Made by a program: the position numbers and the translations under genes. The notes under the pieces were generated by a model that saw only the letters and a program-made list of their open reading frames with translations, did not search any database and had not been told where the DNA came from. Shown in pieces: positions 7,971 to 27,449 of a DNA stretch of 64,000 nucleotides. How positions within the stretch are numbered: the stretch's first letter is position 1; each line of letters starts with the position of its first letter. Source of the DNA: a virus; IMG/VR virus record IMGVR_UViG_3300042396_000723, positions 32,001-96,000 of that record; one strand, given 5' to 3'.

Positions 7971-8328
7971 CGACTTTAAACTCCTTAAATAGTTGGGTTG
8001 TGTTTAGCATTAACATCTTCTGGAAAACTTCTATCTCGATAGATAAACCGTTGTTTAAACAGTGGTGATAGAGGCTTTGGAACTGATAGTAGGTATGGTG
8101 TGGGTATTTGGAACTAACAAAAATATGCAATAGGTACAAGATGTTTAATTCCGCCCAATCAACAGGTTTTCTTGTTATCCCCAAAACCCCTTTTCTGTCT
8201 GCGATTGTCTGGTGGGAAACCTTGAAAATCAACTGAATCTCTTTTGAGGAAAATGGTTCTAAAGCGTTTTCGTCTCTAAGATCTATTGTTTTCCTAATTC
8301 CCCCTTGCCTCGATCTAAAATCGCCCAT
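7855..8328 (-). CDS. hypothetical protein
   Basis: 157 aa; overlaps previous ORF. Confidence 0.25.
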   Translation of the reverse strand: MGDFRSRQGGIRKTIDLRDENALEPFSSKEIQLIFKVSHQTIADRKGVLGITRKPVDWAELNILYLLHIFVSSKYPHHTYYQFQSLYHHCLNNGLSIEIEVFQKMLMLNTTQLFKEFKVDVLSRITSYRQQHSTGTYRVVSELTETPNPGGTAETAD

Positions 8329-8451
8329 TCATGGCTTCCTATAGTCCTCCGTTCTGGGTTTACTCAGGCTTGATTTAACCTGATGTACCAATAGTAAACC
8401 CACCTCTAAGGGTGGGCATAGGGGAAAATACATCTGGGGTGGAATTTGCCA

Positions 8452-8655
8452 CTACTGATTATTCTTTTCCTGCCATTCCATAACATAAAGCGTGTGTTTG
8501 CAAAATCGTTTCAATACATCTCGGTCAACCCATAAGTCCACAAAGGTATTATCTTGATTAATCGTTGCAATACAGTATTGACCATTAAGGTTTTGCCCTA
8601 ATTTTATTTCCCCTTTTAGGTGATGGACTTCTTGAGAGTGTGAATAATTGTCCAT
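8452..8655 (-). CDS. hypothetical protein
   Basis: 67 aa; start overlaps upstream stop. Confidence 0.3.
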   Translation of the reverse strand: MDNYSHSQEVHHLKGEIKLGQNLNGQYCIATINQDNTFVDLWVDRDVLKRFCKHTLYVMEWQEKNNQ

Positions 8656-8852
8656 TATATTTTTCCCTCTGATTGTGCTAACAAACCTAAGTGGCGACGA
8701 AATTGAACGTATTGGGGTTTAGGGTCGTAGCCTTTGCGACGGTGATTTTTTACCGTGTCAGGGTCGGCTCCTGTTAACAATGAAATTTGGTTGATGGATT
8801 TTCCGGTAAGTAAACGAAATTCATCTACAGATAGTTCTTTTTGTGCAAACAT
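8655..8852 (-). CDS. hypothetical small protein
   Basis: 65 aa; first gene after a divergent intergenic region. Confidence 0.3.
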   Translation of the reverse strand: MFAQKELSVDEFRLLTGKSINQISLLTGADPDTVKNHRRKGYDPKPQYVQFRRHLGLLAQSEGKI

Positions 8853-8977
8853 TGTAATAGCCTCAACTGGGTTAAAGAATGGGTTGGGGTGGGGCTGATC
8901 GGCTGATATCCGGTCAGCCCCTTTCAGTATTTGTGTTAATGTTATGCTGATTATATGCTAAACGACATAAAAAAACA

Positions 8978-9229
8978 ATGGACAAAAGGTATAGAATTAC
9001 GATTAAGATCCCTGCGTGGCATAATAAGCGATTAAGGGAATGGGCAGCACTCAAGGGTGTAGCACCCACAACCTTGGCGGGTAACGTATTGCAAGCTCGA
9101 ATAGAAGCAAACGACGAACAAATTGTGGCGATGTTAAAGTCTCGGTCTGAGGATGAAGGATTAACTATTGAGGAATTTATTAAAAAGATTGTCAATGATT
9201 CAGATGATCAAGAAAAGCCCACTAGGTAG
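8978..9229 (+). CDS. ribbon-helix-helix-like small DNA-binding protein (putative)
   Basis: 83 aa; N-terminal RITIKIPAWHNKRLREWAALKGV resembles an RHH beta-strand plus helix; lone plus-strand gene inside minus block. Confidence 0.4.
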   Translation: MDKRYRITIKIPAWHNKRLREWAALKGVAPTTLAGNVLQARIEANDEQIVAMLKSRSEDEGLTIEEFIKKIVNDSDDQEKPTR

Positions 9230-9281
9230 AGTGAGCTTCTTTGGAGTTATCGGGAATAAGGGCAGGAGTTGTAAGATTGTT

Positions 9282-9716
9282 TTAAATAAGACTGTTCAAA
9301 CTATTTACAATTTCTTCCTTATTGATTTCATCATCTACAAATCTTTTTGCATTGATTGAATCAATTAAAAATTGAAAAGCTCTTGATTCAGTAAGATACA
9401 TTGGGATATTTAAAACGTTGTCAAGTTCACCGTTAAATATTTTATTTGCTATTATCACGGCATCCTCAACATTTAGAACGCCATCATGCACCAACAATTC
9501 CACAATGCCAATTAATCCCATGTAGAATCCAGCTTTTAATAAATCCGAATAATCGGGTTTTACTATTTTGGCTTTTTCGTTAATTTCAACCGTAGATTTA
9601 TGAGCTAAACTGTATTCTAAACAGTATTTGAAATTATCTGGGTTCAATTGTGAGAGTAAAATAACGCCTTTTTCACTCACAAACTTTGAGCCAGAATCTA
9701 ATTCTTTAATGTCCAT
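9282..9716 (-). CDS. hypothetical protein
   Basis: 144 aa; AT-rich ORF convergent with the RHH gene. Confidence 0.35.
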   Translation of the reverse strand: MDIKELDSGSKFVSEKGVILLSQLNPDNFKYCLEYSLAHKSTVEINEKAKIVKPDYSDLLKAGFYMGLIGIVELLVHDGVLNVEDAVIIANKIFNGELDNVLNIPMYLTESRAFQFLIDSINAKRFVDDEINKEEIVNSLNSLI

Positions 9717-9829
9717 TTTGTCTCCATAATGTTTCCTGTGGGATGCCCCTACTCTGACGGGAATCAGAAATAGGGGCTTTTAATTTATTTTATCGCCACC
9801 ATTGTCCGTCGCTGATGAAGTCTTGATCG

Positions 9830-10159
9830 TTAGATAAACAAACTTAACTGACCCTCACTAGCAACCGCTTTACGTTTTGGATTGTTCCACGATTCCCCCC
9901 GACTGTTGACACGGTTTCGCCAGTGGGGATAGGTTCTGAACGGTTGTTTCAGTGCCACAAATTTAGGAATCAGTTTCAATTCCTCAAGCCAGATTTTGTA
10001 AGGACTGTATTCCCTGGCTCCGAATGGGTAGCGGTCGTTGCAATACTTCCGGGCATCCTTAGAGTTGATCTCTTCGCTCAGACAAGCGCATTGTGCTTCG
10101 TACTCGATCAAAGAGTCTGCAATCTTTGAGATTGAACAATCGCGCCAAGACATTTGCAT
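9830..10159 (-). CDS. hypothetical protein
   Basis: 109 aa ORF. Confidence 0.35.
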   Translation of the reverse strand: MQMSWRDCSISKIADSLIEYEAQCACLSEEINSKDARKYCNDRYPFGAREYSPYKIWLEELKLIPKFVALKQPFRTYPHWRNRVNSRGESWNNPKRKAVASEGQLSLFI

Positions 10160-10290
10160 TTCAATTCCCTCCAGAATAATAATTCAACCAATACCAAAAC
10201 GTTGTCAGTTGCCACTCGTGGGGTTTTTTACGACTGACAATATTGCGCCATAGTCTGAAGTTGGCTCGAAAGTCACGCAGGCCAGTCCAA

Positions 10291-10572
10291 TCAATCATGT
10301 TTCCTCCTGTGTTTTTTGGGGTTTAGCGATCGCAAATAATCTGCAATCGCTCGGCAATGGTTTGGATCATTAACATCTTCATGACACTGAATCCAATGTT
10401 TAATCAGTGTCAAATTGTAGCCATACCCCGCCCGATTCCCCCCAGGGCGTTTGTAATAATGAATATTTTCGATCCATTTTTTGTGAGAGTGTTTAACGGA
10501 ATCGGGATTTTTTAATCCCAGGAGTTTGACCGCTTCATGTTTGGAGCCAAATTCGTAGGCTGTGGCAATCAT
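10291..10572 (-). CDS. small DNA-binding protein, excisionase/MerR-like HTH (tentative)
   Basis: 93 aa; pattern HYYKRPGGNRAGYGYNLTLIKHWI resembles excisionase-type HTH proteins; weak. Confidence 0.25.
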   Translation of the reverse strand: MIATAYEFGSKHEAVKLLGLKNPDSVKHSHKKWIENIHYYKRPGGNRAGYGYNLTLIKHWIQCHEDVNDPNHCRAIADYLRSLNPKKHRRKHD

Positions 10573-10958
10573 AAACCTTGAATCCTTAACTGAATAGGAA
10601 CCTCGTTAATCTCCAACAATCCTTTTTTAGAAAGTTTTGCCAATTCAACCTGAACATCTTGCACGTCGAATTTAATTTCTTTCTCCTTCCCCAATGGAGT
10701 TACGCCAGAACAGTCAAGTATTGTGATTAGATTTTCTGGTGTAACTTCTAAATCTTTATTGCAGCCATAAAGAAGACGAAGCATATAGAGAATGTAGACA
10801 GATTTGTTTATTCCCCCTGCTATTAAATCCGATTGCAAATTATAAACAGATTGGACTAATTTACCCTGTTTATTCATCACTGTCCCCATATTTTTCTCTG
10901 GGGCTTTTAATTGAATGACGTTATCAATTTCAGTGGTTTCAATTTGTTCAACTTGCAT
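10569..10958 (-). CDS. hypothetical protein
   Basis: 129 aa; start/stop overlap with neighbour. Confidence 0.35.
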   Translation of the reverse strand: MQVEQIETTEIDNVIQLKAPEKNMGTVMNKQGKLVQSVYNLQSDLIAGGINKSVYILYMLRLLYGCNKDLEVTPENLITILDCSGVTPLGKEKEIKFDVQDVQVELAKLSKKGLLEINEVPIQLRIQGL

Positions 10959-10967
10959 AATCTTCTC

Positions 10968-11261
10968 CTATCTAGTAAAACTGATTTGAGCATCCCAGAG
11001 GGTTTGAAGCCACTGGTTTTGCGTGGGCATTAAGTGTTGATTTTTTTCTCTTAACGGATGCGGGAACATCCTCCGAGCTAGTTTAGATGCTGCGATCGCA
11101 TCTTTTTTAGAATGAAAATACCCAGGGAAACGTCGCCCTGATGCCAAGTGAGTAACCCCCCAGTAATCGTCGTCAATCCGATGTACAGCGATCCACTTTC
11201 TGATAGTTGCCTTTACTTTCCATCGCCCATAAATAGTATGGGTTACAATCGTTTTTCTCAT
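10968..11261 (-). CDS. hypothetical protein
   Basis: 97 aa. Confidence 0.35.
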   Translation of the reverse strand: MRKTIVTHTIYGRWKVKATIRKWIAVHRIDDDYWGVTHLASGRRFPGYFHSKKDAIAASKLARRMFPHPLREKNQHLMPTQNQWLQTLWDAQISFTR

Positions 11262-11449
11262 GACTCAACCCTTGTTCTTGTGATAACTGAAACGGGAACC
11301 CCGTCCCAATCTTCCTGGATATAGTATCTGCCAGTGCCAGATTTATTCATTTCCTCGCACTTTTTCCGAGCTTGATTAAATCTCGGATAAGACGCGATAA
11401 TAACGCCTTTTCCTAGTTCCCAAATCGCGTAGCCTTTCTGTTTGCTCAT
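11258..11449 (-). CDS. hypothetical protein
   Basis: 63 aa; overlapping stop/start with downstream gene. Confidence 0.3.
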   Translation of the reverse strand: MSKQKGYAIWELGKGVIIASYPRFNQARKKCEEMNKSGTGRYYIQEDWDGVPVSVITRTRVES

Positions 11450-11541
11450 CTTTCTGTCTTAATGTTAATTTGGCATATTCAATAGCAAAAAATATGCCCC
11501 CTTTATACTGTTTTTCCCTGTATGGATTGGGGGCTTAAACT

Positions 11542-11697
11542 TTAAGCTCGTTTTAATCTCGAACCATATTGAACGTGATGGTATAGAGTCTCAACAGTTT
11601 TGAACCGATGCCCACAGTCTGGACATTTCCGCTCTCGGTACTCTTTCCTCGTGCCGACTACACAAGTCTTTTCAGCGTTGCATTTAGGACATTTCAT
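11542..11697 (-). CDS. zinc-ribbon small protein (not in ORF track)
   Basis: My own translation: MKCPKCNAEKTCVVGTRKEYRERKCPDCGHRFKTVETLYHHVQYGSRLKRA (51 aa), CxxC...CxxC; GGAGG upstream; start overlaps the TAA of a 32-aa upstream ORF (TAATG). Confidence 0.45.
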   Translation of the reverse strand: MKCPKCNAEKTCVVGTRKEYRERKCPDCGHRFKTVETLYHHVQYGSRLKRA

Positions 11698-11898
11698 TAC
11701 AACACCTCCTCCTTCTTGTTGTAAAAGTCTTTTAGTTCGCTAATGGCTTTAATGAGAAGATCAATTTCTGGAGAATAACGCTTCGTACTTGACATCTGGT
11801 TTCTGGTTAATGGGTTAAAAAAGGGGTGTAGCTAGAGGGCTTTCCACCCCAGGAGATTCTTACTTACACAAACGTTTAAATGATTAAACGATTTTTGT

Positions 11899-12054
11899 CT
11901 AAACATCACCTCCTTCATCTTCGGCTTCAATATCAATTGAAGCATCCGCTTTTTCTAGCAGCCATTCGATAAATTCTTGGTAGATTTCTTCTTTGGTCAA
12001 AGAAGGATAATCTATTTCTTCTGTGTCACCACAAGCTCTAAATATTGCTTTCAT
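11899..12054 (-). CDS. small acidic protein (not in ORF track)
   Basis: My own translation: MKAIFRACGDTEEIDYPSLTKEEIYQEFIEWLLEKADASIDIEAEDEGGDV (51 aa); ATG overlaps TGA of upstream gene (ATGA). Confidence 0.35.
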   Translation of the reverse strand: MKAIFRACGDTEEIDYPSLTKEEIYQEFIEWLLEKADASIDIEAEDEGGDV

Positions 12055-12347
12055 GATTCTCCTTTCTGCTTGATATAATCCCCAAGCGATAAAACATAAA
12101 CTTCTGTCCCTTGTTCAATTGTTCCTTCGCTCCATTCAGGCTTGGGGATTCCCTTAGAGATTCCTAACAAAGTAACTGTTACCGAGGGGACGCTGTTGCC
12201 GTATCCGTTGGTAAAGCGGATATGGGTTAGTGGCTTATGAAATCGGGATTGATAGTAAGGTTTAATCTCCCGATATTCCTCTAGCTTCACGCCGGAGGCT
12301 ATCATGTCAAACCACTTTTTCTTGATGGCTAGAGTTAAGGTTTTCAT
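12051..12347 (-). CDS. ASCH/DUF3850-like domain protein (tentative)
   Basis: 98 aa; N-terminus MKTLTLAIKKKWFDMIASGVKLEEYR resembles the ASCH beta-barrel N-terminal pattern. Confidence 0.35.
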   Translation of the reverse strand: MKTLTLAIKKKWFDMIASGVKLEEYREIKPYYQSRFHKPLTHIRFTNGYGNSVPSVTVTLLGISKGIPKPEWSEGTIEQGTEVYVLSLGDYIKQKGES

Positions 12348-12379
12348 AACCCTTTTCCTGCTCTCATAAGTTCATTGAT

Positions 12380-12589
12380 CTAGCGAGTGCGATCGCGCCC
12401 CGCTTGTTGACCATCTTCATAACACCCTTGATCAAGGTGTGCTATTACTTCATCCCCTTTCAGGAGCCACCATTTCCGGTGATAAGGGACAGAACCCGTA
12501 GCGGTTCCCCAGAGTTCAACGCCTTCGGGCATCGCGTAATAATCTTTGTCGTAATTTGAAGCCACCCGTCTAATTTCTGATGCGTTCAT
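12380..12589 (-). CDS. hypothetical protein
   Basis: 69 aa. Confidence 0.3.
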   Translation of the reverse strand: MNASEIRRVASNYDKDYYAMPEGVELWGTATGSVPYHRKWWLLKGDEVIAHLDQGCYEDGQQAGRDRTR

Positions 12590-12668
12590 AATTCTCTTAT
12601 TTATGCTGGGTTTTGAATTGGGGGAATTTCACCCCCGGAGTTAATCAGTCAAGAACCAAGGCAATTAT

Positions 12669-13352
12669 TTAGAAATCGAAATTACTTCCAGTGAGAACTT
12701 TTACTTCAACAGGTGGCAGCGCCGAGGGGAGTGTGGGAGTTTTGTTCCCAACTAAATAACTCAATTCATCTTGAGCAAGACCATCAATGCACTGCATCAT
12801 CCGAGTCCCTTCCATGTCGGTCATTCGAGACAGATTAGCCGGATCAGCTAAAACCGCCGACGCTTGATCTAACATCGCCCAGTCGGTGCGCTCCTGCCAA
12901 GACCACTTAAGGCTGTAATAATTAACAGGCTTGATAACGTTGTTGGCATCGGGTTTGGAGCTTGACTGTTTGACAAATTCGGGTACAAAAATGCCTGTCG
13001 CGGGTTCCACACCTCGCGCTTGAACTTCTGTGACGAGGCGGTTAAAATCCCCTAAAGATTGGGTTTTTAAGTACGTCACCATCACCACACCTTTAGGCAG
13101 TTCCCCCGATTCAGCGACGAACCAAATCTGTCCCCAGGTTGCGCCTTGAGTTTGTCCGAGGTCGCCCCAGAATTTGGAGAATTTCAGGATTGTCATGGAA
13201 CATTTAGAGCCATAATCGGTGTCGCCAATTGTCCATTGTCCGGCTTGGCAATTGTTACGAACGGCAATAGGGAAATTGGGAACTAAGATTGCATCTTTCG
13301 GCTTAGCTCCGAAGACGGAAATAGTGGATTTTTCGGCTGCTGTTTTTGTCAT
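12669..13352 (-). CDS. hypothetical protein
   Basis: 227 aa; long ORF, no motif recognised. Confidence 0.45.
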   Translation of the reverse strand: MTKTAAEKSTISVFGAKPKDAILVPNFPIAVRNNCQAGQWTIGDTDYGSKCSMTILKFSKFWGDLGQTQGATWGQIWFVAESGELPKGVVMVTYLKTQSLGDFNRLVTEVQARGVEPATGIFVPEFVKQSSSKPDANNVIKPVNYYSLKWSWQERTDWAMLDQASAVLADPANLSRMTDMEGTRMMQCIDGLAQDELSYLVGNKTPTLPSALPPVEVKVLTGSNFDF

Positions 13353-14171: not shown

Positions 14172-14696
14172 TTAATAGCGGTTTTCCTCCTCAGTCCAAC
14201 TTTGTTCAACTAAGCAATCAACAGCTAACTGAAACGAACTATGGCGGGACGTACTATACTGAAAACCTTTCCCATGCACCAGCATCTCACCGACCGCATA
14301 AAACCAGGATTTGTACTGGACTACGAAACCCAACTTACAACCCGTCTCATAAATAACCGTCCCCTGTTGTTTGGCTAAGGAAACAATCATTTCTTGAGTT
14401 GGTTGATTCGCGTCGATTAATTCCCGTTTTTGGGAACAGATTAGCTCCCAATAGAATGAGAACTGATCCGCACCAATTAGAATTGCGCCACCATCAGCTA
14501 ACACAAATTTCAAGATGTCGTGATTGGTAAAGATACCTGTTATCTGTTCGGGCGTGGGATTGATTTGTCCGAATGTGTCCCAAGCAATGACTTGGGCAGC
14601 GATGGTCTTGTCTAGTGCTAACGCCATGATTTCCCCTGAAATCAGAGGGGCGGGCGCTGTCTGAACTTGACTTGTTTGGACGGTTGTTGCTATCAT
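14172..14696 (-). CDS. hypothetical protein
   Basis: 174 aa. Confidence 0.4.
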   Translation of the reverse strand: MIATTVQTSQVQTAPAPLISGEIMALALDKTIAAQVIAWDTFGQINPTPEQITGIFTNHDILKFVLADGGAILIGADQFSFYWELICSQKRELIDANQPTQEMIVSLAKQQGTVIYETGCKLGFVVQYKSWFYAVGEMLVHGKGFQYSTSRHSSFQLAVDCLVEQSWTEEENRY

Positions 14697-14915
14697 GGTT
14701 TAGTTGGGTTTTGACCCGTAAGGCGGTTGGCACTGATGTTGTAGTCGGGTGCTGACCGCTTTTGGCTTTGTATCTACAATCTTATAGTAATCTGATTACT
14801 ATGTCAAGGGGTTTCGGAAAAATTCTTGTTACTACACAAAAAGAAGTTTAGGTATTGGCGGCAAGGCTTGTACAGAAAGGCATTTAGCTTATGCGGTTGC
14901 AATCGACAATCACTC

Positions 14916-15188
14916 TCATCGCTTCTGACTAAAGGACTTGATTGTCACGGTAGGGAACAGGTCTCGGATATCAGCACCGAGGGTCTTTAAAACAAAATCC
15001 AATCTTTCACGACTAACAGATGCAACTTTTCCCTGTTCCCATTTGAGGATTGTGTCAAAGGAAACCGTTGGCTCCGTAAGGGTTGCAAGTTTTTTTTGCG
15101 ATATGTTTTTGGCATTTCTTACATCTTGCAATCTAGTCCCAACGTCCTTATCCCAAGCAATTTGGACAATACAGTTATATGGAATCAT
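14916..15188 (-). CDS. XRE-family HTH transcriptional regulator (repressor candidate)
   Basis: HTH pattern GTRLQDVRNAKNISQKKLATLTEPTVSFDTILKWEQGK; I place the start at ATG 15188 (MIPYN..., GGAG upstream) rather than track start 15401; divergent from replication block. Confidence 0.55.
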   Translation of the reverse strand: MIPYNCIVQIAWDKDVGTRLQDVRNAKNISQKKLATLTEPTVSFDTILKWEQGKVASVSRERLDFVLKTLGADIRDLFPTVTIKSFSQKR

Positions 15189-15465
15189 AATCTCCTCTTC
15201 TTGATCTTTCGGTATAGTATTGACATTACTACCTTTTTGTTCTAACATAGCAATATTGTAGGAATCTGGCAAGACCAAATCACCAGATTCCTGCACCCCC
15301 TGAAACAACAAGCCTTGGATCGGCTTTGTAAATCGTAAGGGGAAAAACCCGAAAAGGAAAATGCCTATGGGATGAAACTGAACGGGCAGATTGTAGAACA
15401 CCTAAATACCAGAGGGAAGATTCAAGCATTCCCTTTGGTTTCCTAAATAATGAAATGAAAAAAAT

Positions 15466-15568
15466 AGCGATAGCGATTGCGATTGCGATTTTTGCAGTCA
15501 TAAATTGTTTATTAATTTTCTGTGATGATTCGCAGAAAATCGGGGAAAATTCCCCGTCGGAAGAGCAA
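15466..15568. promoter_or_regulatory. switch-region repeats and palindromes (operator candidates)
   Basis: Intergenic: 4x GCGAT(A/T) hexamers at 15466-15490; near-palindrome CGGGGAAAATTCCCCG at 15541-15556; inverted pair TCCCCGT...ACGGGGA. Confidence 0.3.
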
Positions 15569-15630
15569 CCCAAACGGGGAGATGGTCGAAGAAGCTGATC
15601 ATCATTTTCCCTAAAAATTTTGAGGAAAAT

Positions 15631-15909
15631 ATGAAGATTTCAATTTCAGAAGAATTGGATGACATTGGAATGTCCGCCGAAGCATTCCGAGTCTATTTTG
15701 CGATCGTTTGCCATATTGCAAATCACGAGACGTTTCCAACGGTTGATCAAATCACGTCAAAATGTTTTTCCAGACGACGCGCGTCTGGAAAAACGCAGAC
15801 AAGGCTTGCGTTGCGCGAGCTAATTAAGCTCGGTTTAATTAGCGGTGATATCGAAACGGAAAACTATACCTTAGTTCATCCCAGTAAGTGGGAAGTGGGG
15901 GCTGTATGA
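15631..15909 (+). CDS. winged-helix DNA-binding protein (replication-associated, putative)
   Basis: 92 aa; FRVYFAIV...FPTVDQITSKC...RLALRELIKLGLI resembles HTH domains at N-termini of replication initiators; ATGA overlap with next gene. Confidence 0.4.
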   Translation: MKISISEELDDIGMSAEAFRVYFAIVCHIANHETFPTVDQITSKCFSRRRASGKTQTRLALRELIKLGLISGDIETENYTLVHPSKWEVGAV

Positions 15910-17081
15910 AACCATCTATTCTAGCCGCCTTTGCAGAAGCCGTCCCCTATATCCCCGGACTCAGACAGCAAACAGGGAGCGTAGTAGCCACGATTCTTAT
16001 GATGCAACTTGAGTATCGTTTCGCAAAGTATCCAGACGGGTTTTATAAGTTTTTAGAACCCCCTCAAAACGGACATCAGGACTACAGGCTTGGGGATAGT
16101 TGGGTTGAGGAACTCGCTTTTTCTAAAGAAGAATTTAGGACTGGGTTTGACAAGATTGGAGTCCGTTACAACTCCAAAACCCAGTATGACGAAGCAAAAT
16201 CTAGCGGATCGGAATTTGGTTGTAATTACTACTGTTCTTACGTTGACCGGAGGTCGGGGTTAACTTTCTACTTTCGGAATCACAGCAAGGTAGATGAGCT
16301 AATTTCCGATATCGAACCCAGGCAAAAATCAGTGGGTTTTCGCCCACGGAAAACTAGACCCCAAATGGTAGATCCCAATCTACAGGAAATCGGGAATCCC
16401 AATTTACTGAATATGGTAAATCCCAATTTACCATCATCGGGAATCCCAATTTACCAGAGTGGTGAATCCCAATTTCCTATTCCTTATATAGATATTTCAG
16501 AAAAGACTTCAGAAAAGACTCCAGAAAATACCCCCCTTACCCCCCAAGGGGAATCGGAGGAGGGGGGGATTCAGAACGAAGCCGTTTTGATTTCAAACGA
16601 AGACCAGGGGAAAGAGCTTACCGAGGACTCTGCTACACAGCAAAGTCAAAAAGAGAATCACCGACCTGAACAAAATCTTAATCCGGTGATCAGACATTCC
16701 GCCGCCGTCGAGTCCGATCCTCGATTTCTACCAACGGACGCAACAGCAGACAATATGAAAACTTGGAACGCAATTGTGGCGACCGGAGCCATGAGAGGTG
16801 AGCGATCGCCCGACCCTGAGTTTTTGGAATATTACAGGGGGCTATTAAGCAAATGCACTCATTACAGGGGCAAAGACTGTAATTCAAACCATGCCAAATC
16901 TTCCCTTGCTCAGAAATGGAAATCCGAGCCACTAAAAATCCTTGCCGATGCCGAGTCGTGGTTGAAATCAAAAGCCAAGTTTAGCGGTGGCAAATCAACC
17001 CAGACCCGCAATATCAGCGAACTTTCTAGGGATGAACGCCTCGCCATCCTGAGAGCCAAACGCGAACAAAAAGGAGCCTAA
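15906..17081 (+). CDS. replication initiator / replisome organiser candidate
   Basis: Sits just upstream of DnaB; contains five direct repeats (iteron-like) plus an AT-rich stretch; C-terminal half low-complexity. Confidence 0.45.
   Translation: MKPSILAAFAEAVPYIPGLRQQTGSVVATILMMQLEYRFAKYPDGFYKFLEPPQNGHQDYRLGDSWVEELAFSKEEFRTGFDKIGVRYNSKTQYDEAKSSGSEFGCNYYCSYVDRRSGLTFYFRNHSKVDELISDIEPRQKSVGFRPRKTRPQMVDPNLQEIGNPNLLNMVNPNLPSSGIPIYQSGESQFPIPYIDISEKTSEKTPENTPLTPQGESEEGGIQNEAVLISNEDQGKELTEDSATQQSQKENHRPEQNLNPVIRHSAAVESDPRFLPTDATADNMKTWNAIVATGAMRGERSPDPEFLEYYRGLLSKCTHYRGKDCNSNHAKSSLAQKWKSEPLKILADAESWLKSKAKFSGGKSTQTRNISELSRDERLAILRAKREQKGA
16372..16473 (+). repeat. iteron-like direct repeats (putative origin)
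   Basis: Five copies of (G)AATCCCAAT(T)TAC with cores at 16372, 16396, 16420, 16443, 16466 (23-24 bp spacing), followed by AT-rich sequence to about 16530. Confidence 0.5.
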
Positions 17082-21017: not shown

Positions 21018-21461
21018 ATGAAAACATCAACTAAAGCCAAAACCAAACCCGCTAAAAAAGGATTTCAACCCGCCCCTAAAATTCATGACAATGACTTACA
21101 TATATTTTCTTGTGAGTGCCTTTGGTATGACTCAGAAACCGACGAGGAACTATTGACCGAATTGTGGACAGTCAAACTCGATAAACGACGGTTTCGGACT
21201 GATGTCAGGCAAGCCATTATTACGGGGTTGATCTATTGCTTTCTTGAAACACCGGAAGCAACGGAACGGCATATTAACAGGGTGTTTTTTTGGAATAATA
21301 AATCCCGTGCCTATGAGCCATTAGGGGCGGTGTCTGACGCGCCGATGGACGGATCTAGTCCGGTTGATTTTGAAGCCGATCCGGTGGTGGCTTATGAGCG
21401 ATTAAAAGCCCTTTGTGTCGAGATCGAAGTTATCAAGGTTGACGATTGCTTTTGCTCTTGA
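21018..21461 (+). CDS. hypothetical protein
   Basis: 147 aa. Confidence 0.4.
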   Translation: MKTSTKAKTKPAKKGFQPAPKIHDNDLHIFSCECLWYDSETDEELLTELWTVKLDKRRFRTDVRQAIITGLIYCFLETPEATERHINRVFFWNNKSRAYEPLGAVSDAPMDGSSPVDFEADPVVAYERLKALCVEIEVIKVDDCFCS

Positions 21462-21485
21462 CCTTTTAAAAATACACAAATAAAC

Positions 21486-21514
21486 TTGTTTTTTTTGCGT
21501 TATTTGTGTATAAT
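21486..21514 (+). promoter_or_regulatory. sigma-70-like promoter candidate
   Basis: TTGTTT (21486-21491), 17-bp spacer, TATAAT (21509-21514), preceded by TGTG; followed by about 260 nt of non-coding sequence. Confidence 0.4.
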
Positions 21515-21781
21515 GAAAACAGTCAAGAATCAAGGTTTACCAATGTAGTTTGTTGGTAAATAGTTAACCAGTCTAAGCTCTTTACTGAGCTACGTTATTG
21601 GGAAGTGTTTAAGTTCATACCTTGGGATGCGTTGCCAGTTCCAAGCTCTATAACTAAGTGATTAAACAGATGTACAGCAATTAAGTCAGCAATACTGCTG
21701 ATACCCTCTTAATAAGCAGCGATTTCCCACAAATCCCCATAATCTGTTATAACTGGTGAGTAGTTATATGAGGTTGTTTTT

Positions 21782-21982
21782 ATGGTAAGACCCCACGAAC
21801 ACAGGCAAGAAATCAAAGCCAGACTCAAACCAGAAGATAGGGAGAAGTTGAAAGCCCTCGTCGTTGGCATGGGTTATCGTTATTGGAGGCAGGAGTCACC
21901 GGAACCCGCATGGACTGAGTTTTTGGAGGCGATCGCAACGGGCGATATAATTCTTTACAAAAAAGTCGGGGGAGGGGGTTGA
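21782..21982 (+). CDS. hypothetical protein
   Basis: 66 aa. Confidence 0.3.
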   Translation: MVRPHEHRQEIKARLKPEDREKLKALVVGMGYRYWRQESPEPAWTEFLEAIATGDIILYKKVGGGG

Positions 21983-22043
21983 CCTTTTGGGATAAGTGGG
22001 GTACAGTTATAAATGTAGAAGGTTGAAATAAAGGAACAAGACG

Positions 22044-22274
22044 ATGACCACTCAAACCGAGCCAACTAAAATTTACTGCGACCGGAAATTTTCACTTTAC
22101 GACGTAACACCCTGGACAGCCGCAAGGCTGACGAATTTCTTTAACTTGGTTGACGATGGTGAAGACGTGAAACGTGCCGTCAATGGGTTGAAAACCTGGA
22201 AAGGTAGTCAGTCCTACCGCTTGACAATGAGTGACAAAGCTTCGATTGATTACGTTATTGAATGCTACGGTTAA
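22044..22274 (+). CDS. hypothetical protein
   Basis: 76 aa. Confidence 0.35.
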   Translation: MTTQTEPTKIYCDRKFSLYDVTPWTAARLTNFFNLVDDGEDVKRAVNGLKTWKGSQSYRLTMSDKASIDYVIECYG

Positions 22275-22342
22275 AGATTAATTAACCGAGTAAGGTGGCT
22301 GCCCTACTCGGTTCGAAGTCAATCATTTAAGAGGAGTATACC

Positions 22343-22852
22343 ATGTCAAGCAAAAAACAGGTCAAGCAATCTTTAGAACTGACACTAAGTTTAGCCGAAT
22401 CACTAGGGCCATTAACACGGTCAGAAGCTAAAGAGTTTTTTGGATTATTGGGAGAACTCAATAAAGTTTTCAGTAAAGTAGTTGACCCCGATGCTCACGG
22501 CCTAAAACCCGAACCCAGTCCCGAAGTAGTTAAACACCCCATTGATGCCCTACTCAAAAAAGGAAAGGTCGAACTACCAGAGGGACGCTACAAACAACTG
22601 ATTCAGATTCATGACGAGCTTTTAGTCCTCAAGATTAAATTCTTGAGTGCGAAGCAAAATCAGAATGTCACCTGGTTCCCCCTTGAGTGGAACGGGGATA
22701 AGTCAGCCGCGTTGTACTTGTCATCGTCGGAATGGTCTATAGCTCCCATCAAGTACCGAGATGACAACGATTTGACGGGCGAGTGGGAAGGATTTGATCT
22801 TACTGAGTTCATGAGTATGAACTGCCCAGAGTTTGATCAAGACGAATATTGA
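22343..22852 (+). CDS. hypothetical protein
   Basis: 169 aa; AGGAG upstream. Confidence 0.4.
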   Translation: MSSKKQVKQSLELTLSLAESLGPLTRSEAKEFFGLLGELNKVFSKVVDPDAHGLKPEPSPEVVKHPIDALLKKGKVELPEGRYKQLIQIHDELLVLKIKFLSAKQNQNVTWFPLEWNGDKSAALYLSSSEWSIAPIKYRDDNDLTGEWEGFDLTEFMSMNCPEFDQDEY

Positions 22853-22904
22853 TTTCATGGGAGGTCTTACCCTCCCTCCAAGAAGTAAAGCAGGAGAACA
22901 AATT

Positions 22905-23063
22905 ATGCTATATCGCATCACCCGAATCAAAACCGCACCCGACAGAAAAGACCGTCAAGGGTATTATTTAGAAGCCTTGAATGAGTTAGAGGCTTTGACA
23001 AGATTTCATAACCAATTCCCTGAATTTGTAGGGGAAGAATTAGAGTTAGAGGAATGGAATTAA
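22905..23063 (+). CDS. hypothetical small protein
   Basis: Start moved to ATG 22905 (MLYRIT..., AGGAG upstream) from track start 22833. Confidence 0.3.
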   Translation: MLYRITRIKTAPDRKDRQGYYLEALNELEALTRFHNQFPEFVGEELELEEWN

Positions 23064-23088
23064 AAGACCTCTAATTCAACTTAAAACT

Positions 23089-23118
23089 AACCAGGGGTTT
23101 ATATTCCCTGGTTTTTTG
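23089..23118. terminator. intrinsic terminator between convergent genes
   Basis: Stem ACCAGGG / CCCTGGT with 9-nt loop, followed by TTTTTTG. Confidence 0.6.
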
Positions 23119-23122
23119 CTGT

Positions 23123-23719
23123 TTATCTAATCACAGGGACAGGAATAATCCCCATCAGAATGCCAGATATTTCCTGAAACATTCGCGTAGTTGTTTGCGT
23201 TGCGTCAATTATAATCCAGTTATTTTGCCTAGCCAATTCCAGATATCCGAAGCGAACCCGATCTAAAAAAAGCAAGTCTCGTTCAACCTTGTCCAGAGGT
23301 TTGTCGAGATCGCGGCGCACCGCCACCTCAACAGGACAATCGAACAAAATCACCATATCGGGATCAATTCCCCCCGTCGCCTCGTGATTTAGCTTCCTTA
23401 AATTATCTAAATTAAGCCCGTGCCCATATCCCTGATAGGCAAGTGTTGAATCCGTGTATCGATCACACAATACCAAATCAGAATCTTCTAACAAATATCT
23501 AATCGTGGGATTGTGTTTAATCCTATCCTTCAGGATTAATTTAAGCTGCTGCTCCGGCGTTAAACACCCATTCTTTAATTCAAAACGAACGTCATAATCG
23601 CAGGGTTCTCTTGTGATGTAGAACTTTAACTTTAACGCCGTGAAATGGTCGCAAAGTTTTCTAATTTGGGTTGTTTTCCCACTGCGGTCAATACCTTCAA
23701 AAGCAATCAATTTACTCAT
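23123..23719 (-). CDS. tmk: thymidylate kinase
   Basis: P-loop FEGIDRSGKTTQ and DRY motif CDRYTDSTLAYQG; start placed at ATG 23719 (MSKLIAFEG), overlapping the stop of the upstream small ORF (ATGA). Confidence 0.85.
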   Translation of the reverse strand: MSKLIAFEGIDRSGKTTQIRKLCDHFTALKLKFYITREPCDYDVRFELKNGCLTPEQQLKLILKDRIKHNPTIRYLLEDSDLVLCDRYTDSTLAYQGYGHGLNLDNLRKLNHEATGGIDPDMVILFDCPVEVAVRRDLDKPLDKVERDLLFLDRVRFGYLELARQNNWIIIDATQTTTRMFQEISGILMGIIPVPVIR

Positions 23720-23880
23720 TTCATCCTCATCCAATTTTTAATCAAATCATCTTTAATCATACCTTGCCTTATTAATTCAATTATATATTCTCTAGCTTCC
23801 TCCAGTGTCAATATATCCACATTACGTTTAATTATCGCAAGTTTAAATTCTTGCTCCATTGTTAGCTGTGTTGGTTCCAT
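23716..23880 (-). CDS. nblA: NblA-like phycobilisome degradation protein (not in ORF track)
   Basis: My own translation: MEPTQLTMEQEFKLAIIKRNVDILTLEEAREYIIELIRQGMIKDDLIKNWMRMK (54 aa); matches the NblA pattern L-[ST]-x-EQ-x-F ... RQ-x-M and NblA length. Confidence 0.5.
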   Translation of the reverse strand: MEPTQLTMEQEFKLAIIKRNVDILTLEEAREYIIELIRQGMIKDDLIKNWMRMK

Positions 23881-26759: not shown

Positions 26760-27449
26760 TTATCTGATAATCGTTAACGTCGTAGTCTCTGGCAACTTCA
26801 CCCACGGATAAACGATCCGCCAAACATCGTGACTATAAATATTTTTCGTCATGTACCGGGCGTCGGGAACTTGTTTAATCTCTATCCCCATCTTAATACT
26901 CATCGCTTTGAGAGGTCGCCAACTGAAGTTAGACTCATGAACTTTATTGAACTTGGCAACCCTGATGATTGACGAATAATCAAAAAGTTCATCCAAAGCC
27001 TCGGACAGTTGATTGTTTTCTTCCTCAAGCAGTGCTTTCTCGGCCTCTAACTTTTCTACCTCTAACGCCAATCGTCCAGCCTCTAGCAAAGCCTGAGCAT
27101 AGGTTTGTGGTAACGCAAGCGGGGTCTGAACGTGGTTATTCTTAGCAAGGGAGAAAGCCTCAACTAACCGTTCTTTGCAATCCAAAACCTGATCACTGTT
27201 TCGGGAAAACGTCATCAAAAGTGTTGCTTGTGCTTCATTCAAGAAACAGTAAGAGACTTCGTAAGCCCCACCCTGCGGGCGTCTCACCACGTCCGTTTTA
27301 AACGCGACTGGTGTTTTTCGTTCTAATCGGTCTAAATACTTTGTGATTGTTTGCAGTAAGTTCTTATGTTGAATCCCCAGTTCATCAGCAATCAATCGGG
27401 AATCGACAACTAAGGTGTCATTCTGTGTGGTAATGTCAAGAATAGCCAT
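26760..27449 (-). CDS. phage antirepressor-like protein (Rha-like N-terminus, KilAC-like C-terminus)
   Basis: 229 aa; N-terminus ITTQNDTLVVDSRLIADELGIQHKNLLQTI resembles Rha regulators; C-terminal half is a paralogue of the C-terminus of ORF 49642-50370. Confidence 0.6.
   Translation of the reverse strand: MAILDITTQNDTLVVDSRLIADELGIQHKNLLQTITKYLDRLERKTPVAFKTDVVRRPQGGAYEVSYCFLNEAQATLLMTFSRNSDQVLDCKERLVEAFSLAKNNHVQTPLALPQTYAQALLEAGRLALEVEKLEAEKALLEEENNQLSEALDELFDYSSIIRVAKFNKVHESNFSWRPLKAMSIKMGIEIKQVPDARYMTKNIYSHDVWRIVYPWVKLPETTTLTIIR

What the first reader, a model, noticed from the sequence alone, without database searches (positions are those of the whole stretch)
15189..15630. Long divergent control region between XRE-type regulator and replication block
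About 440 bp separate the XRE HTH gene (minus, start 15188) from the first plus-strand replication gene (15631). It contains 4x GCGAT(A/T) hexamers (15466-15490), a 16-bp near-palindrome CGGGGAAAATTCCCCG (15541-15556) and an overlapping inverted pair TCCCCGT-17nt-ACGGGGA. The layout resembles a lysis-lysogeny switch. Track ORF 15280-15573 here is low-complexity and probably not coding.
Basis: seen in the sequence. Interest (0 to 1): 0.45.

Follow-up and report, generated by a model that had tools for sequence, protein, structure and literature searches.

The report
Cyanophage control region hides peptide gene
The supposedly empty 440 bases between a repressor gene and the replication genes of a Planktothrix cyanophage hold a repressor binding site on back-to-back promoters, a folded RNA leader, and an overlooked 47-codon gene for a small, probably exported peptide; in sister phages this peptide carries RGSGR, the motif filamentous cyanobacteria use to control cell differentiation.

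Summary
The window is a PaV-LD-like Planktothrix cyanophage. All three lie inside an unannotated 47-codon plus-strand gene (15455-15598). This gene is conserved in every relative: pN/pS is 0.26, all indels are in frame, and distant homologues share almost no DNA.

The likely operator is a different palindrome, ATAGTATT-GAC-ATTACTAC (15214-15232), centred on the -35 of a rightward promoter. A twin sits in the spacer of the leftward promoter beyond the XRE gene (14784-14802). PaV-LD-type relatives carry a 45%-identical XRE protein and, at both equivalent places, a different palindrome. A third type has an RHH regulator with its own repeats. This is a lambda-like exchangeable immunity cassette.

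Between the promoter and the small gene lies a conserved, structured leader of about 200 nt.

The small protein has a hydrophobic N-terminus and ends in KRGDGRRS. Of 59 family sequences, 41 carry (N/E/H)RGSGR, the HetR-inhibiting PatS/PatX/HetN motif. The window's clade has lost it. It is not a PatX member by HMM.

The control-region reading is partly supported. A lysis-lysogeny switch is unproven: there is one regulator and no integrase in this window. The peptide family is the interesting part.

The parts
14779..14807 (-). Leftward early promoter candidate P_L: -35 TTGACA (14807-14802), 17-nt spacer, -10 TAAGAT (14784-14779). It drives the minus-strand operon that begins at 14696.
   Evidence: Consensus scan, 10 of 12 matches. 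The scaffold CCCCTTGACA...TAAGATTGTAGAT is conserved in all type A and B loci, and its -35 part in type D loci. Function is inferred.
14784..14802 (.). Operator O_L: perfect palindrome ATAGTAAT-CTG-ATTACTAT, filling the spacer of P_L.
   Evidence: The pattern gives 6 strand-wise matches at up to 2 mismatches (2 of them distant 2-mismatch hits), but only two sites in 64 kb match with at most 1 mismatch; 0 of 100 shuffles reach 6. The arms are invariant in 18 loci while the centre varies (CTG, CTA, CCA). Type B phages have a different palindrome at the same place.
14916..15188 (-). XRE-type HTH regulator gene, 90 aa, type A. The Shine-Dalgarno GGAG lies at 15195-15192.
   Evidence: Pfam HTH_3 2.6e-6. 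PHROG transcriptional repressor or regulator families. The start at 15188 is supported by the conserved SD and by relatives whose ORF begins at MIPY/MVPY.
15214..15232 (.). Operator O_R: ATAGTATT-GAC-ATTACTAC, twin of O_L. Its centre is the -35 TTGACA of P_R.
   Evidence: (D3, I2). In type B loci it is replaced by TTCTTATAT-TGACA-TTATAAGATT, matching their own O_L.
15220..15248 (+). Rightward early promoter candidate P_R: TTGACA-17-TAACAT.
   Evidence: 10 of 12. Conserved as TTGACA-17-TA(A/C/T)CAT in all type A and B loci. Inferred, not mapped.
15244..15272 (-). Candidate promoter of the XRE gene: TTGCCA-17-(TG)n-TATGTT. Its -10 overlaps the -10 of P_R on the other strand, and O_R lies just downstream of its predicted start.
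   Evidence: 9 of 12, TG extension. Conserved as TTGCCA-17-TATG(T/G/A)T. Inferred.
15257..15295 (+). Leader hairpin 1: 13-bp stem and 13-nt loop at the predicted 5' end of the P_R transcript.
   Evidence: dG -20 kcal/mol, z -6.35. Two pairs show compensatory double changes in the L032/L038 clade.
15299..15345 (+). Leader helices: CCC(C/U)...GGGG enclosing hairpin 2 (AAGCC-loop-GGCTT, 15310-15326).
   Evidence: Two compensatory pairs in the outer helix. Loop insertions of 8 nt (L008, L009 and others) and about 40 nt (L032) leave the stem base intact.
15408..15439 (+). Leader hairpin 3 (11 bp) followed by a moderately U-rich tail. It may be a weak terminator or attenuator, about 15 nt before the small gene.
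   Evidence: dG -16.2, z -3.77. One compensatory pair, plus A-U to G-U changes that only work on the plus-strand RNA. It did not pass the terminator scan.
15455..15598 (+). Unannotated small gene, 47 aa: MKKIAIAIAIAIFAVINCLLIFCDDSQKIGENSPSEEQPKRGDGRRS. Hydrophobic N-terminus, acidic linker, conserved C-terminal RG(D/E/S)(G/D)RR motif.
   Evidence: Homologues lie in front of the 92-aa gene in all relatives. pN/pS is 0.26 against 2.4 and 7.1 in shifted frames; variable columns are 6/5/18 by codon position; 5 indels are all multiples of 3. 37 database homologues. Exhaustive HMM search. Not annotated in PaV-LD.
15467..15490 (+). It encodes the codons (A)IAIAIAI of the hydrophobic segment.
   Evidence: Its length varies in frame among relatives by 6, 9 and 15 nt.
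15541..15580 (+). They encode codons GENSPSEEQPKRG and can form alternative RNA hairpins.
   Evidence: z -2.4. They are invariant in 9 clade variants even at third codon positions, which suggests an additional nucleotide-level constraint of unknown nature.
15581..15603 (+). Hairpin GATGGTC-9 nt-GATCATC followed by ATTTTCCC. It contains the stop codon TGA (15596-15598) of the small gene.
   Evidence: Flagged as terminator-like. The stem is kept through G-U to A-U changes while the loop varies. Folding.
15622..15633 (+). Shine-Dalgarno GAGG (15622-15625) and ATG (15631) of the 92-aa first replication-block gene.
   Evidence: The gene gives a weak match to the N-terminus of PHROG 'replication initiation protein'. 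The SD-sequestering hairpin 15604-15630 is not significant (z -1.36).

Best explanation
The interval is the right half of an exchangeable, lambda-like immunity cassette, followed by the 5' leader and the first, overlooked gene of the rightward early (replication) operon.

Inferred mechanism:
1. A dimer of the 90-aa XRE protein binds two 8-N3-8 palindromes. O_R (15214-15232) has the -35 hexamer of the rightward promoter P_R at its centre and lies just downstream of the start of the XRE gene's own promoter. O_L (14784-14802) fills the spacer of the leftward promoter P_L. Binding would shut off both early operons and autoregulate the XRE gene.
2. P_R and the XRE promoter are arranged back to back with overlapping -10 elements, so RNA polymerase can use only one at a time.
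3. The P_R transcript begins with a conserved, structured leader of about 200 nt: a 5' stem-loop, nested helices, and a terminator-like hairpin. It probably sets the stability of the transcript or read-through of it.
4. The first gene translated is a 47-codon gene (15455-15598). It encodes a small pre-peptide with a signal-like hydrophobic N-terminus and a conserved C-terminal KRG(D/E)GRR. Its stop codon sits inside a hairpin 33 nt before the next gene, so its translation is probably coupled to expression of the replication genes.
5. My preferred guess for the peptide's own role is an exported pro-peptide, with the architecture of PatX, Phr or AimP, that releases a short arginine-glycine peptide acting on a conserved host target. 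Most family members carry RGSGR, the HetR-inhibiting motif of PatS/PatX/HetN, so HetR of the filamentous host is the leading candidate.

What is shown: the sequences, their conservation, the co-variation of regulator and palindrome, and the coding signature. What is inferred: binding, promoter use, export, processing and target.
For: Identity of the element: 88% identity to Planktothrix phage PaV-LD, with synteny across the window.

Operators. The palindrome occurs at only two places in 64 kb at up to 1 mismatch (6 strand-wise matches at up to 2 mismatches; 0 of 100 shuffles reach 6). Type A regulator loci (18) keep the arms and vary the 3-nt centre. Type B loci (XRE 45% identical, with changes in the recognition helix) carry AATCTTATAA-N5-TTATAAGATT at O_L, with six different centres, and a matching site at O_R. 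This sits inside otherwise conserved promoter scaffolds. RHH-type loci have yet other repeats at the same promoters.

Promoters. TTGACA-17-TAnCAT, TTGCCA-17-TATGnT and TTGACA-17-TAAGAT are conserved.

Leader. The region 15250-15660 folds with z -6.0. In the leader alignment A3 (15250-15452), 95% of cells are paired against 28-56% when the partners are slid, and 5 pairs have double changes.

Small gene. pN/pS is 0.26 in frame against 2.4 and 7.1 out of frame, third-position variation dominates, and five indels are in frame. A 2-nt deletion in L008 is rescued by an upstream ATG that preserves MKK. In L010 the stop overlaps the next ATG (ATGA), and the C-terminal PKRG(D/E)GRR is kept through five synonymous codon changes. 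The gene holds the same position in 30+ loci, including a P. tepida chromosomal element.

Peptide family. Of 59 distinct sequences, 41 carry (N/E/H/S)RGSGR and 55 carry C-terminal G(D/E/S)(G/D)R. In P0031, P0033 and P0034 the C-terminal motif is itself RGSGR. The hydrophobic peak is KD 2.5-3.0 over 15 residues.

Host pathway. P. agardhii genomes have hetR, patX and patP (Table S3 of PMC12756182). PatX is a 56-aa Sec-exported pro-peptide cleaved to HRGTGR, which inactivates HetR (PMC12756182). RG(S/T)GR is essential for that activity (PMC7761841).
Against: Nothing here has been tested experimentally: no binding, no transcript ends, no peptide detection.

Only two XRE immunity types, plus one RHH type, underlie the co-variation argument. 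All RNA compensatory changes come from one divergent clade.

The window's own peptide lacks RG(S/T)GR. It has QKIGEN at the internal position and RGDGR at the C-terminus, and PaV-LD itself has RGDDR. The internal RGSGR has been lost in at least three lineages, while the C-terminal G(D/E)GRR, which is not a known HetR ligand, is the best-conserved part.

The NCBIfam PatX model scores only 7-9 bits against a cut-off of 30 for two family members, and gives nothing for the window protein. An exhaustive profile search of 1.84 billion representatives found no canonical PatX.

Export was not tested, since no signal-peptide predictor was available. The motif CGGGGAAAATTCCCCG shows no synonymous variation, so part of the conservation of the gene may be at nucleotide level.
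Confidence: 0.72

Rival explanations
1. The whole 442 bp is non-coding, and the GCGATW repeats, CGGGGAAAATTCCCCG and the TCCCCGT/ACGGGGA pair are the XRE operators of a lysis-lysogeny switch.
For: The motifs are real and non-random. The palindrome and its flanks show no synonymous variation in 9 variants, which hints at a nucleotide-level constraint.
Against: The motifs lie in a gene with a clear coding signature. They are identical in phages with type A and type B XRE proteins, and absent from type B phages whose small gene has a different sequence. The GCGATW repeat number varies in frame, and in L017 most of the repeat is deleted. A different palindrome does co-vary with the regulator.
Confidence: 0.05
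2. The small ORF is only a cis-acting leader (uORF). What matters is its translation, which melts the hairpins at 15541-15603 and the terminator-like stem around its stop codon, so gating transcription or translation of the replication genes. The peptide itself has no function.
For: There is a dense run of hairpins inside and after the ORF, the stop codon lies inside a terminator-like hairpin, L010 has an ATGA overlap, and the palindrome shows no synonymous change.
Against: A hydrophobic N-terminus and the C-terminal RG(D/E)GRR are conserved across homologues whose DNA is unalignable. pN/pS is 0.26. In L022 and L023 another gene separates it from the 92-aa gene. The SD-masking hairpin is not significant. 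Coupling may well coexist with a peptide function.
Confidence: 0.12
3. The small protein acts in another way. It could be a membrane-anchored early protein (superinfection exclusion, or a holin or antiholin-like protein). Or it could be an arbitrium- or Phr-like phage-phage communication pro-peptide whose C-terminal peptide is sensed by a phage receptor.
For: It has a single hydrophobic segment and a charged tail and a position next to the immunity cassette. Its N-terminus gives a weak hit to the Phr pro-peptide model (14.9 bits, cut-off 25). The architecture, a signal followed by a conserved C-terminal short peptide, is that of AimP and Phr (own knowledge).
Against: The C-terminal motif is nearly the same in phages of different immunity types and at 30% overall identity. 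Communication peptides usually diverge with their receptor. No AimR- or Rap-like TPR receptor gene is adjacent. The exact host morphogen motif RGSGR in 41 of 59 members is left unexplained.
Confidence: 0.2
4. The conserved non-coding part (15232-15454) is the replication origin or a packaging site rather than an RNA leader.
For: It is highly conserved, lies next to the replication genes, and contains palindromes.
Against: G-U-preserving changes favour a plus-strand RNA. Iteron-like 23-bp repeats, the usual mark of a lambda-type origin, lie elsewhere, inside the initiator-like gene at 16372-16475. RHH-type relatives lack this segment altogether yet have the same replication genes.
Confidence: 0.04

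Closest known systems
Lambdoid immunity regions (cI/cro with O_L-P_L and O_R-P_R; imm434, imm21 and imm-lambda cassettes). Own knowledge of the classical system.
   Same: The regulator gene is flanked by divergent early promoters, each overlapped by a palindromic operator. The rightward operon leads to the replication genes. The regulator and both operators are exchanged as one cassette between otherwise near-identical phages, with heterology boundaries inside the promoters.
   Different: There is one palindrome per promoter instead of three sub-sites. There is a single 90-aa HTH protein with no C-terminal dimerisation or RecA-cleavage domain and no separate Cro. The regulator's promoter shares its -10 with P_R. 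No integrase is present in this window. The host is a filamentous cyanobacterium.
PatX / PatS / HetN, the RG(S/T)GR-containing inhibitors of HetR in filamentous cyanobacteria (PMC7761841, PMC12756182, PMC11298460).
   Same: A small (45-70 aa) pro-peptide with a hydrophobic, signal-like N-terminus followed by short Arg-Gly motifs. 41 of 59 family members contain exact RGSGR, preceded by N, E or H as in ERGSGR (PatS-6, own knowledge) and HRGTGR (PatX). Several have two motifs, as Leptolyngbya PatX appears to have three. The host genus has hetR, patX and patP.
   Different: The gene is phage-borne, at the head of an early replication operon, not near hetR and not behind a DIF1 promoter. It scores below threshold on the NCBIfam PatX model. 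The window's variant has no RG(S/T)GR, only RGDGR. The family's best-conserved motif, G(D/E)GRR at the C-terminus, is not a known HetR ligand.
AimP (arbitrium) and Phr pro-peptides of Bacillus phages and bacteria (own knowledge; TIGR04429 hit).
   Same: A pre-pro-peptide of about 45 aa, with an N-terminal export signal and the conserved short peptide at the C-terminus. The gene sits in the phage decision and early region.
   Different: There is no cognate TPR receptor gene. The C-terminal peptide is conserved across immunity types rather than diversified. The host is Gram-negative and multicellular.
Bidirectional promoters with overlapping -10 elements (symmetry-driven divergent transcription described for bacteria; own knowledge).
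   Same: The two candidate promoters, P_R (+) and P_xre (-), share the sequence TAACATA/TATGTTA as -10. Each has a -35 at 17 nt, and the predicted starts are about 18 bp apart.
   Different: Not mapped experimentally here. An operator is superimposed on one -35.

Membership tests
Lambda-like immunity (repressor-operator) cassette | DNA-binding regulator gene between divergent early promoters | tested here: met
   HTH_3 protein lies between conserved promoter-like sites P_L (14807-14779, -) and P_R (15220-15248, +). The promoters are predicted, not mapped.
Lambda-like immunity (repressor-operator) cassette | Operators overlapping both promoters that co-vary with the regulator (immunity specificity) | tested here: met
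   Type A, type B and RHH-type loci each have their own repeat at both promoters. The arms are invariant and the centres free. Binding itself was not tested.
Lambda-like immunity (repressor-operator) cassette | Bistable pair of antagonistic regulators (CI and Cro) with multipartite operators | tested here: not met
   Only one regulator gene, and one palindrome per promoter. No further half-site clusters.
Lambda-like immunity (repressor-operator) cassette | Lysogeny functions (integrase) in the same genome | tested here: inconclusive
   tblastn finds no homologue of the PaV-LD integrase in the 64-kb window, and the syntenic slot is too short. PaV-LD has a true tyrosine integrase, and a P. tepida chromosomal relative has a homologue. 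The rest of this phage genome was not seen.
PatX (heterocyst-inhibiting protein, NCBIfam NF047413) | Score above the curated cut-off of the family model | tested here: not met
   No hit for the window protein. P0025 and P0029 score 9.3 and 7.3 bits against a cut-off of 30, aligned only at the C-terminal motif. No canonical PatX appears among 19 hits in 1.84 billion representatives.
PatX (feature-based definition, as cited in PMC11298460 and PMC12756182) | RG(S/T)GR pentapeptide | tested here: not met
   The window protein has RGDGR at the C-terminus and QKIGEN at the internal position. The feature is met by 41 of 59 other family members.
PatX (feature-based definition) | Small protein with an N-terminal Sec-type signal sequence | tested here: inconclusive
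   47 aa: MKK followed by a 19-20 residue hydrophobic stretch (KD 2.95) and then an acidic region. No signal-peptide predictor was available, and there is no canonical AXA or lipobox site.
PatX (feature-based definition) | Genomic association with hetR or a DIF1 promoter | tested here: not met
   All contexts are phage or prophage early regions. No TCCGGA motif was noted upstream (sequence read).
PatX / PatS functional class | The peptide binds HetR and blocks its activity | not testable with these tools
   Needs ITC or EMSA with HetR, or expression in Anabaena.
Arbitrium (AimR-AimP) communication system | Cognate TPR receptor gene next to the pro-peptide gene | tested here: not met
   The neighbours are the XRE gene, the 92-aa HTH-like protein, and 391-aa and 195-aa proteins without TPR or AimR hits.
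Known RNA families (Rfam 15) | Match at the gathering score for the leader 15250-15450 | tested here: not met
   The best hit scores 27 bits against a gathering score of 60 (E 0.2), so it is chance level.

The most novel reading that the evidence does not exclude
PaV-LD-like cyanophages, and related prophages of filamentous cyanobacteria, express a secreted mimic of the host's PatS/PatX morphogen as the first product of their early replication operon. The mimic is processed in the periplasm, possibly by the host peptidase PatP. The released RGSGR or RG(D/E)GR peptides enter the infected cell and its neighbours and inactivate HetR. This would reprogram a multicellular host response, for example by blocking HetR-dependent necridium formation or filament fragmentation that would otherwise isolate infected cells, or by blocking differentiation. 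The window's RGDGR-only variant would be an altered or specialised version. This would be the first viral mimic of a bacterial developmental signal.
Probability: 0.25. Interest if true: 0.88.

Novelty: new variant of a known kind. Interest (0 to 1): 0.6.

Why it matters
Three things follow.

1. It corrects the annotation of the reference Planktothrix phage PaV-LD and its many environmental relatives. They have an unannotated, conserved first gene in the replication operon and a definable immunity cassette with at least three exchangeable specificities. This gives concrete sites for footprinting and for engineering these bloom-relevant phages.

2. It shows that lambda-style modular immunity exists in cyanophages of filamentous bloom formers. 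It also points to possible lysogeny: an integrase in PaV-LD and a chromosomal relative in P. tepida.

3. The small-peptide family links a phage to the RGSGR-HetR signalling system. The role of that system in non-heterocystous filaments such as Planktothrix is described in the literature as a mystery (PMC11298460). A phage that makes such peptides would be a natural probe of that function, and an example of a virus hijacking bacterial multicellular signalling. The idea is directly testable with peptides, HetR and Anabaena reporter strains.

Tried and rejected
- Rfam scan of 14600-15800 at E up to 10: only chance-level hits.
- Genome-contig scan with the 92-aa protein: no confirmed relative.
- Genome-contig scan with Anabaena HetR, to fetch host patX next to hetR: it returned only Nostocales loci, and none has an RG(S/T/D/E)GR ORF within 1.5 kb. 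I therefore could not obtain Planktothrix PatX for a direct comparison.
- The paper that defines PatX (Elhai and Khudyakov 2018) is not held. The definition was taken second-hand from PMC11298460, PMC7761841 and PMC12756182.
- The OCR of the Leptolyngbya patX sequence is damaged, so its three RGSGR motifs are a reading, not a clean translation.
- tblastn of an RGSGR-type member against 50,697 phage records: no match. Cluster look-up gave only 'hypothetical protein' names.
- SD-sequestering hairpin 15604-15630: not better than shuffles (z -1.36), so dropped as a claim.
- Longer XRE start (ATG 15248 or GTG 15401): rejected. The SD precedes 15188, and in L038, L041, L045 and L047 the ORF starts at the MIPY codon.
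- Hairpin 1 as a third operator: rejected, because it is the same in type A and type B phages.
- The 10-mer AGATTGTAGA shared by the P_L start region and the leader (I18): within chance expectation for a 1.25-kb region, so not pursued.
- Minus-strand ORF 15280-15573: rejected as coding.
Full report
CONTEXT. The window is a relative of Planktothrix phage PaV-LD. Region 14000-19000 matches the start of the PaV-LD record at 88% identity, and the remainder of the window is syntenic with PaV-LD structural and replication genes. The local layout is as follows. A long minus-strand operon ends (that is, starts) at 14696. A 90-aa XRE/HTH_3 gene lies at 14916-15188 on the minus strand. Then come the 442-bp interval in question, a 92-aa gene at 15631, a 391-aa initiator-like gene, a 195-aa gene and DnaB at 17671.

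OBSERVATION. GCGAT(A/T) x4 is at 15467-15490. CGGGGAAAATTCCCCG is at 15541-15556. TCCCCGT-16 nt-ACGGGGA is at 15551-15580. The minus-strand ORF 15280-15573 is not conserved as a reading frame: relatives have non-triplet indels and stops.

THE MOTIFS ARE CODONS OF AN OVERLOOKED GENE. A plus-strand ORF, 15455-15598, encodes MKKIAIAIAIAIFAVINCLLIFCDDSQKIGENSPSEEQPKRGDGRRS. The hexamer repeat spells AIAIAIAI, the palindrome spells GENSP, and the inverted pair spans PSEEQPKRGD. The same ORF precedes the 92-aa gene in PaV-LD, where nothing is annotated between ORF003L and ORF004R. It also precedes that gene in every related viral or metagenomic contig I fetched.

Within the close clade the coding signature is clear. 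pN/pS is 0.26 in this frame against 2.4 and 7.1 in the two shifted frames. There are 6, 5 and 18 variable columns at codon positions 1, 2 and 3. All five indels are multiples of three. In L008 a 2-nt deletion at the start is compensated by use of an upstream ATG, which keeps MKK. Distant relatives, whose 92-aa protein is 47-80% identical, have unalignable DNA here. They still have a small ORF with a hydrophobic N-terminus and a C-terminal P(K/S)(R/P)G(D/E)GRR. In L010 the motif is kept through five synonymous codon replacements, and the stop overlaps the next start codon as ATGA. I regard the gene as real.

THE LIKELY OPERATORS ARE ELSEWHERE. The repeat search found that the sequence directly upstream of the XRE gene, TATAGTATTGACATTACTA (15213-15231), recurs as TATAGTAATCTGATTACTA (14783-14801) on the far side of the XRE gene (D3 and I2). 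Both are palindromes, ATAGTAAT-N3-ATTACTAT. At up to 1 mismatch these are the only two sites in 64 kb. The pattern search at up to 2 mismatches returns 6 strand-wise matches, two of them unrelated distant hits, and 0 of 100 shuffles reach 6.

The left copy exactly fills the 17-nt spacer of a leftward promoter-like site, TTGACA-17-TAAGAT (14807-14779). The right copy has at its centre the TTGACA of a rightward promoter-like site, TTGACA-17-TAACAT (15220-15248).

Comparison with relatives is decisive. Eighteen loci with the identical XRE protein keep the arms and vary only the centre (CTG, CTA, CCA). PaV-LD and about 20 other loci carry an XRE protein that is only 45% identical, with substitutions in the predicted recognition helix: VSFDTILKWEQG against VSEPTIIKLELG. 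At the same two positions, inside the same promoter scaffolds, they carry a different palindrome. At P_L it is AATCTTATAA-N5-TTATAAGATT, with six different centres. At P_R it is TTCTTATAT-TGACA-TTATAAGATT.

A third group (L010, L028-L031) has no XRE gene. Instead a ribbon-helix-helix gene (weak RHH_1 hit) is the first gene of the rightward operon, with AT-rich repeats of its own at both promoters. The heterology begins and ends inside the two promoters.

This is the logic of lambdoid immunity regions: regulator and operators travel together as a cassette. I infer that the XRE dimer represses P_L and P_R.

On the minus strand, TTGCCA-17-TATGTT (15272-15244, with a TG extension) is a conserved candidate promoter for the XRE gene. 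Its -10 overlaps the -10 of P_R on the other strand, and O_R lies just downstream of its predicted start. The arrangement therefore predicts mutually exclusive divergent transcription and autorepression. The SD GGAG and the ORF starts in L038, L041, L045 and L047 support 15188 as the true start of the XRE gene.

THE LEADER. From about 15250 to 15450 the sequence is nearly invariant among type A and type B phages. It is recognisably conserved in a more distant clade (L032, L038, L043) and in L014. The region 15250-15660 folds far better than shuffles (z -6.0).

RNAalifold and pair counting support four elements:
- a 13-bp stem-loop at the predicted 5' end (15257-15295; dG -20, z -6.4);
- an outer CCCC/GGGG helix enclosing hairpin 15310-15326, whose loop tolerates insertions of 8 nt and about 40 nt;
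- an 11-bp hairpin (15408-15439; dG -16, z -3.8) followed by a moderately U-rich tail.

In this structure 95% of cells pair, against 28-56% with slid partners. Five pairs show double compensatory changes, and several A-U to G-U changes only work on the plus-strand RNA. All of this variation comes from one clade, so the support is modest. No Rfam family matches. RHH-type phages lack the leader. I read it as a 5' UTR that controls stability or read-through. The mechanism is not established.

THE SMALL PROTEIN FAMILY. A profile of the homologues retrieved 37 proteins from 5.8 billion. An exhaustive HMM search of 1.84 billion cluster representatives found only 19 hits, about 16 of them genuine. 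The family is therefore small and specific.

Every context examined is the same early region of a PaV-LD-like phage. The exception is one copy in the Planktothrix tepida chromosome. That copy sits in the same arrangement (XRE gene, gap, small gene, plus-strand genes including a Prim-Pol) and lies 5 kb from a homologue of the PaV-LD integrase.

The architecture is constant: a hydrophobic N-terminal segment (KD 2.5-3.0), a linker rich in T, P and E, and a C-terminal (K/E)(R/P)G(D/E/S)(G/D)RR. Of 59 distinct sequences, 41 also carry an exact RGSGR directly after the hydrophobic segment, as NRGSGR, ERGSGR, HRGSGR or SRGSGR. In P0031, P0033 and P0034 the C-terminal motif is itself RGSGR.

RGSGR is the pentapeptide of PatS and HetN, and RG(S/T)GR that of PatX. 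It is essential for inhibition of HetR (PMC7761841). PatX is a 56-aa protein with a Sec signal. It is exported, cleaved by PatP, and yields HRGTGR, which inactivates HetR (PMC12756182). patX and hetR occur in almost all filamentous cyanobacteria, and their role in non-heterocystous species is called a mystery (PMC11298460). P. agardhii genomes have patP, hetR and patX. Leptolyngbya PatX appears to carry three RGSGR motifs (damaged OCR). I found no paper connecting phages with PatX or RGSGR.

CAUTIONS ON THAT LINK. The window's clade has lost the internal RGSGR, with ...FC(D/E)(D/S)SQKIGEN... in its place. It ends in RGDGR, and PaV-LD in RGDDR. At least two other lineages have also degraded the internal motif (NRGRGEN, NRGMGEN, NRGSVKV). 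The part conserved throughout, G(D/E)GRR, is not a known HetR ligand. The NCBIfam PatX model gives no hit for the window protein, and only 7-9 bits (cut-off 30) for two relatives, aligned at the C-terminal motif. The window protein's N-terminus weakly resembles the Phr pro-peptide signal. So this is not a PatX family member by sequence. The resemblance is one of architecture plus an exact functional motif in most relatives. I put the probability that the family acts on HetR at roughly one in four, and lower for the window's own variant.

END OF THE INTERVAL. The stop codon of the small gene (15596-15598) lies in the 3' arm of a conserved hairpin (15581-15603) that is followed by ATTTTCCC. The scan flags this as terminator-like. 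Its stem is maintained through G-U to A-U changes while the loop varies. The SD GAGG (15622-15625) and the ATG at 15631 follow. Translation of the small gene therefore probably influences expression of the replication genes, and L010 shows outright ATGA coupling. The putative SD-masking hairpin is not significant.

The palindrome region shows no synonymous variation in nine variants, although 18 of 47 codons vary at the third position elsewhere. That suggests an extra nucleotide-level constraint that I cannot explain.

LYSIS-LYSOGENY. PaV-LD carries a genuine tyrosine integrase (Phage_integrase 1e-10). The window has no homologue, and the syntenic slot (21461-23132) is too short. With one small regulator and single operators, the circuit looks more like a Cro- or Arc-type early shut-off or autoregulatory loop than a bistable switch. 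The P. tepida chromosomal copy shows that relatives can reside in genomes.

VERDICT. As a lambda-like immunity cassette it is an ordinary, though nicely documented, new member of a known kind. The overlooked peptide gene and its RGSGR-bearing family are the unexpected element, and they justify a moderately high interest score.

Noticed in passing
window 16372-16475: Five iteron-like copies of (G/A)AATCCCAATTTAC spaced 22-25 bp apart (TRF period 23, 4.4 copies) lie inside the 391-aa initiator-like gene (15906-17081). The arrangement resembles the lambda origin inside gene O, so this is a probable origin of replication.
   Followed up: partly
window 14726-14760 (minus-strand RNA): There is a conserved stem-loop, GCGGTCAGCAC...GTGCCAACCGC, at the predicted 5' end of the leftward early transcript (dG -13.2, z -4.0). 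Relatives, including the RHH-type L010, show wobble or compensatory differences. It parallels the 5' hairpin of the rightward leader.
   Followed up: partly
window 21461-23132 versus PaV-LD 8000-12800 (L136): The PaV-LD segment carrying a tyrosine integrase (ORF018R) and PAPS reductase is missing from the syntenic position in the window. No integrase homologue appears anywhere in the 64 kb.
   Followed up: yes
L137 (Planktothrix tepida chromosome LR882970.1, 6229380-6249559): This is a prophage-like element with the same layout: left operon, XRE gene, gap, RGSGR small gene, then plus-strand genes with Prim-Pol and VapE-like domains. It also has a 397-aa homologue of the PaV-LD integrase. No tRNA gene lies in the 20 kb.
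   Followed up: partly
L010 and L028-L031, upstream of the small gene: In these relatives the XRE cassette and the 200-nt leader are replaced by a 63-68-aa ribbon-helix-helix gene on the plus strand. It is the first gene of the rightward operon, Cro- or Arc-like in position, and lies behind back-to-back promoters separated only by GGGG.
   Followed up: partly
L022, about 2500-2690 and 5130-5330: One metagenomic contig carries two different members of the small-peptide family 2.65 kb apart on the same strand. This could be tandem modules or an assembly chimera.
   Followed up: no
window 15449-15457: A two-codon mini-ORF (ATG AAA TGA) overlaps the start codon of the small gene. In L008 a 2-nt deletion turns this upstream ATG into the start of the gene.
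   Followed up: partly
window 15764-15794: A perfect 13-bp inverted repeat, GTTTTTCCAGACG / CGTCTGGAAAAAC, with a 5-nt loop lies inside the 92-aa gene. The left arm differs in PaV-LD, so the repeat is not conserved.
   Followed up: partly
window 26760-27449 (-) and 23123-23734 (-): A Rha-family phage regulatory protein (Phage_pRha, 1.4e-12) and a thymidylate kinase are encoded downstream of the replication block. The Rha-like protein is a second candidate regulator of the phage's developmental decisions.
   Followed up: no
Table S3 of PMC12756182: That survey counts two patX homologues in some Planktothrix agardhii genomes and one in others. The extra copy might be a prophage-borne member of the family described here.
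   Followed up: no
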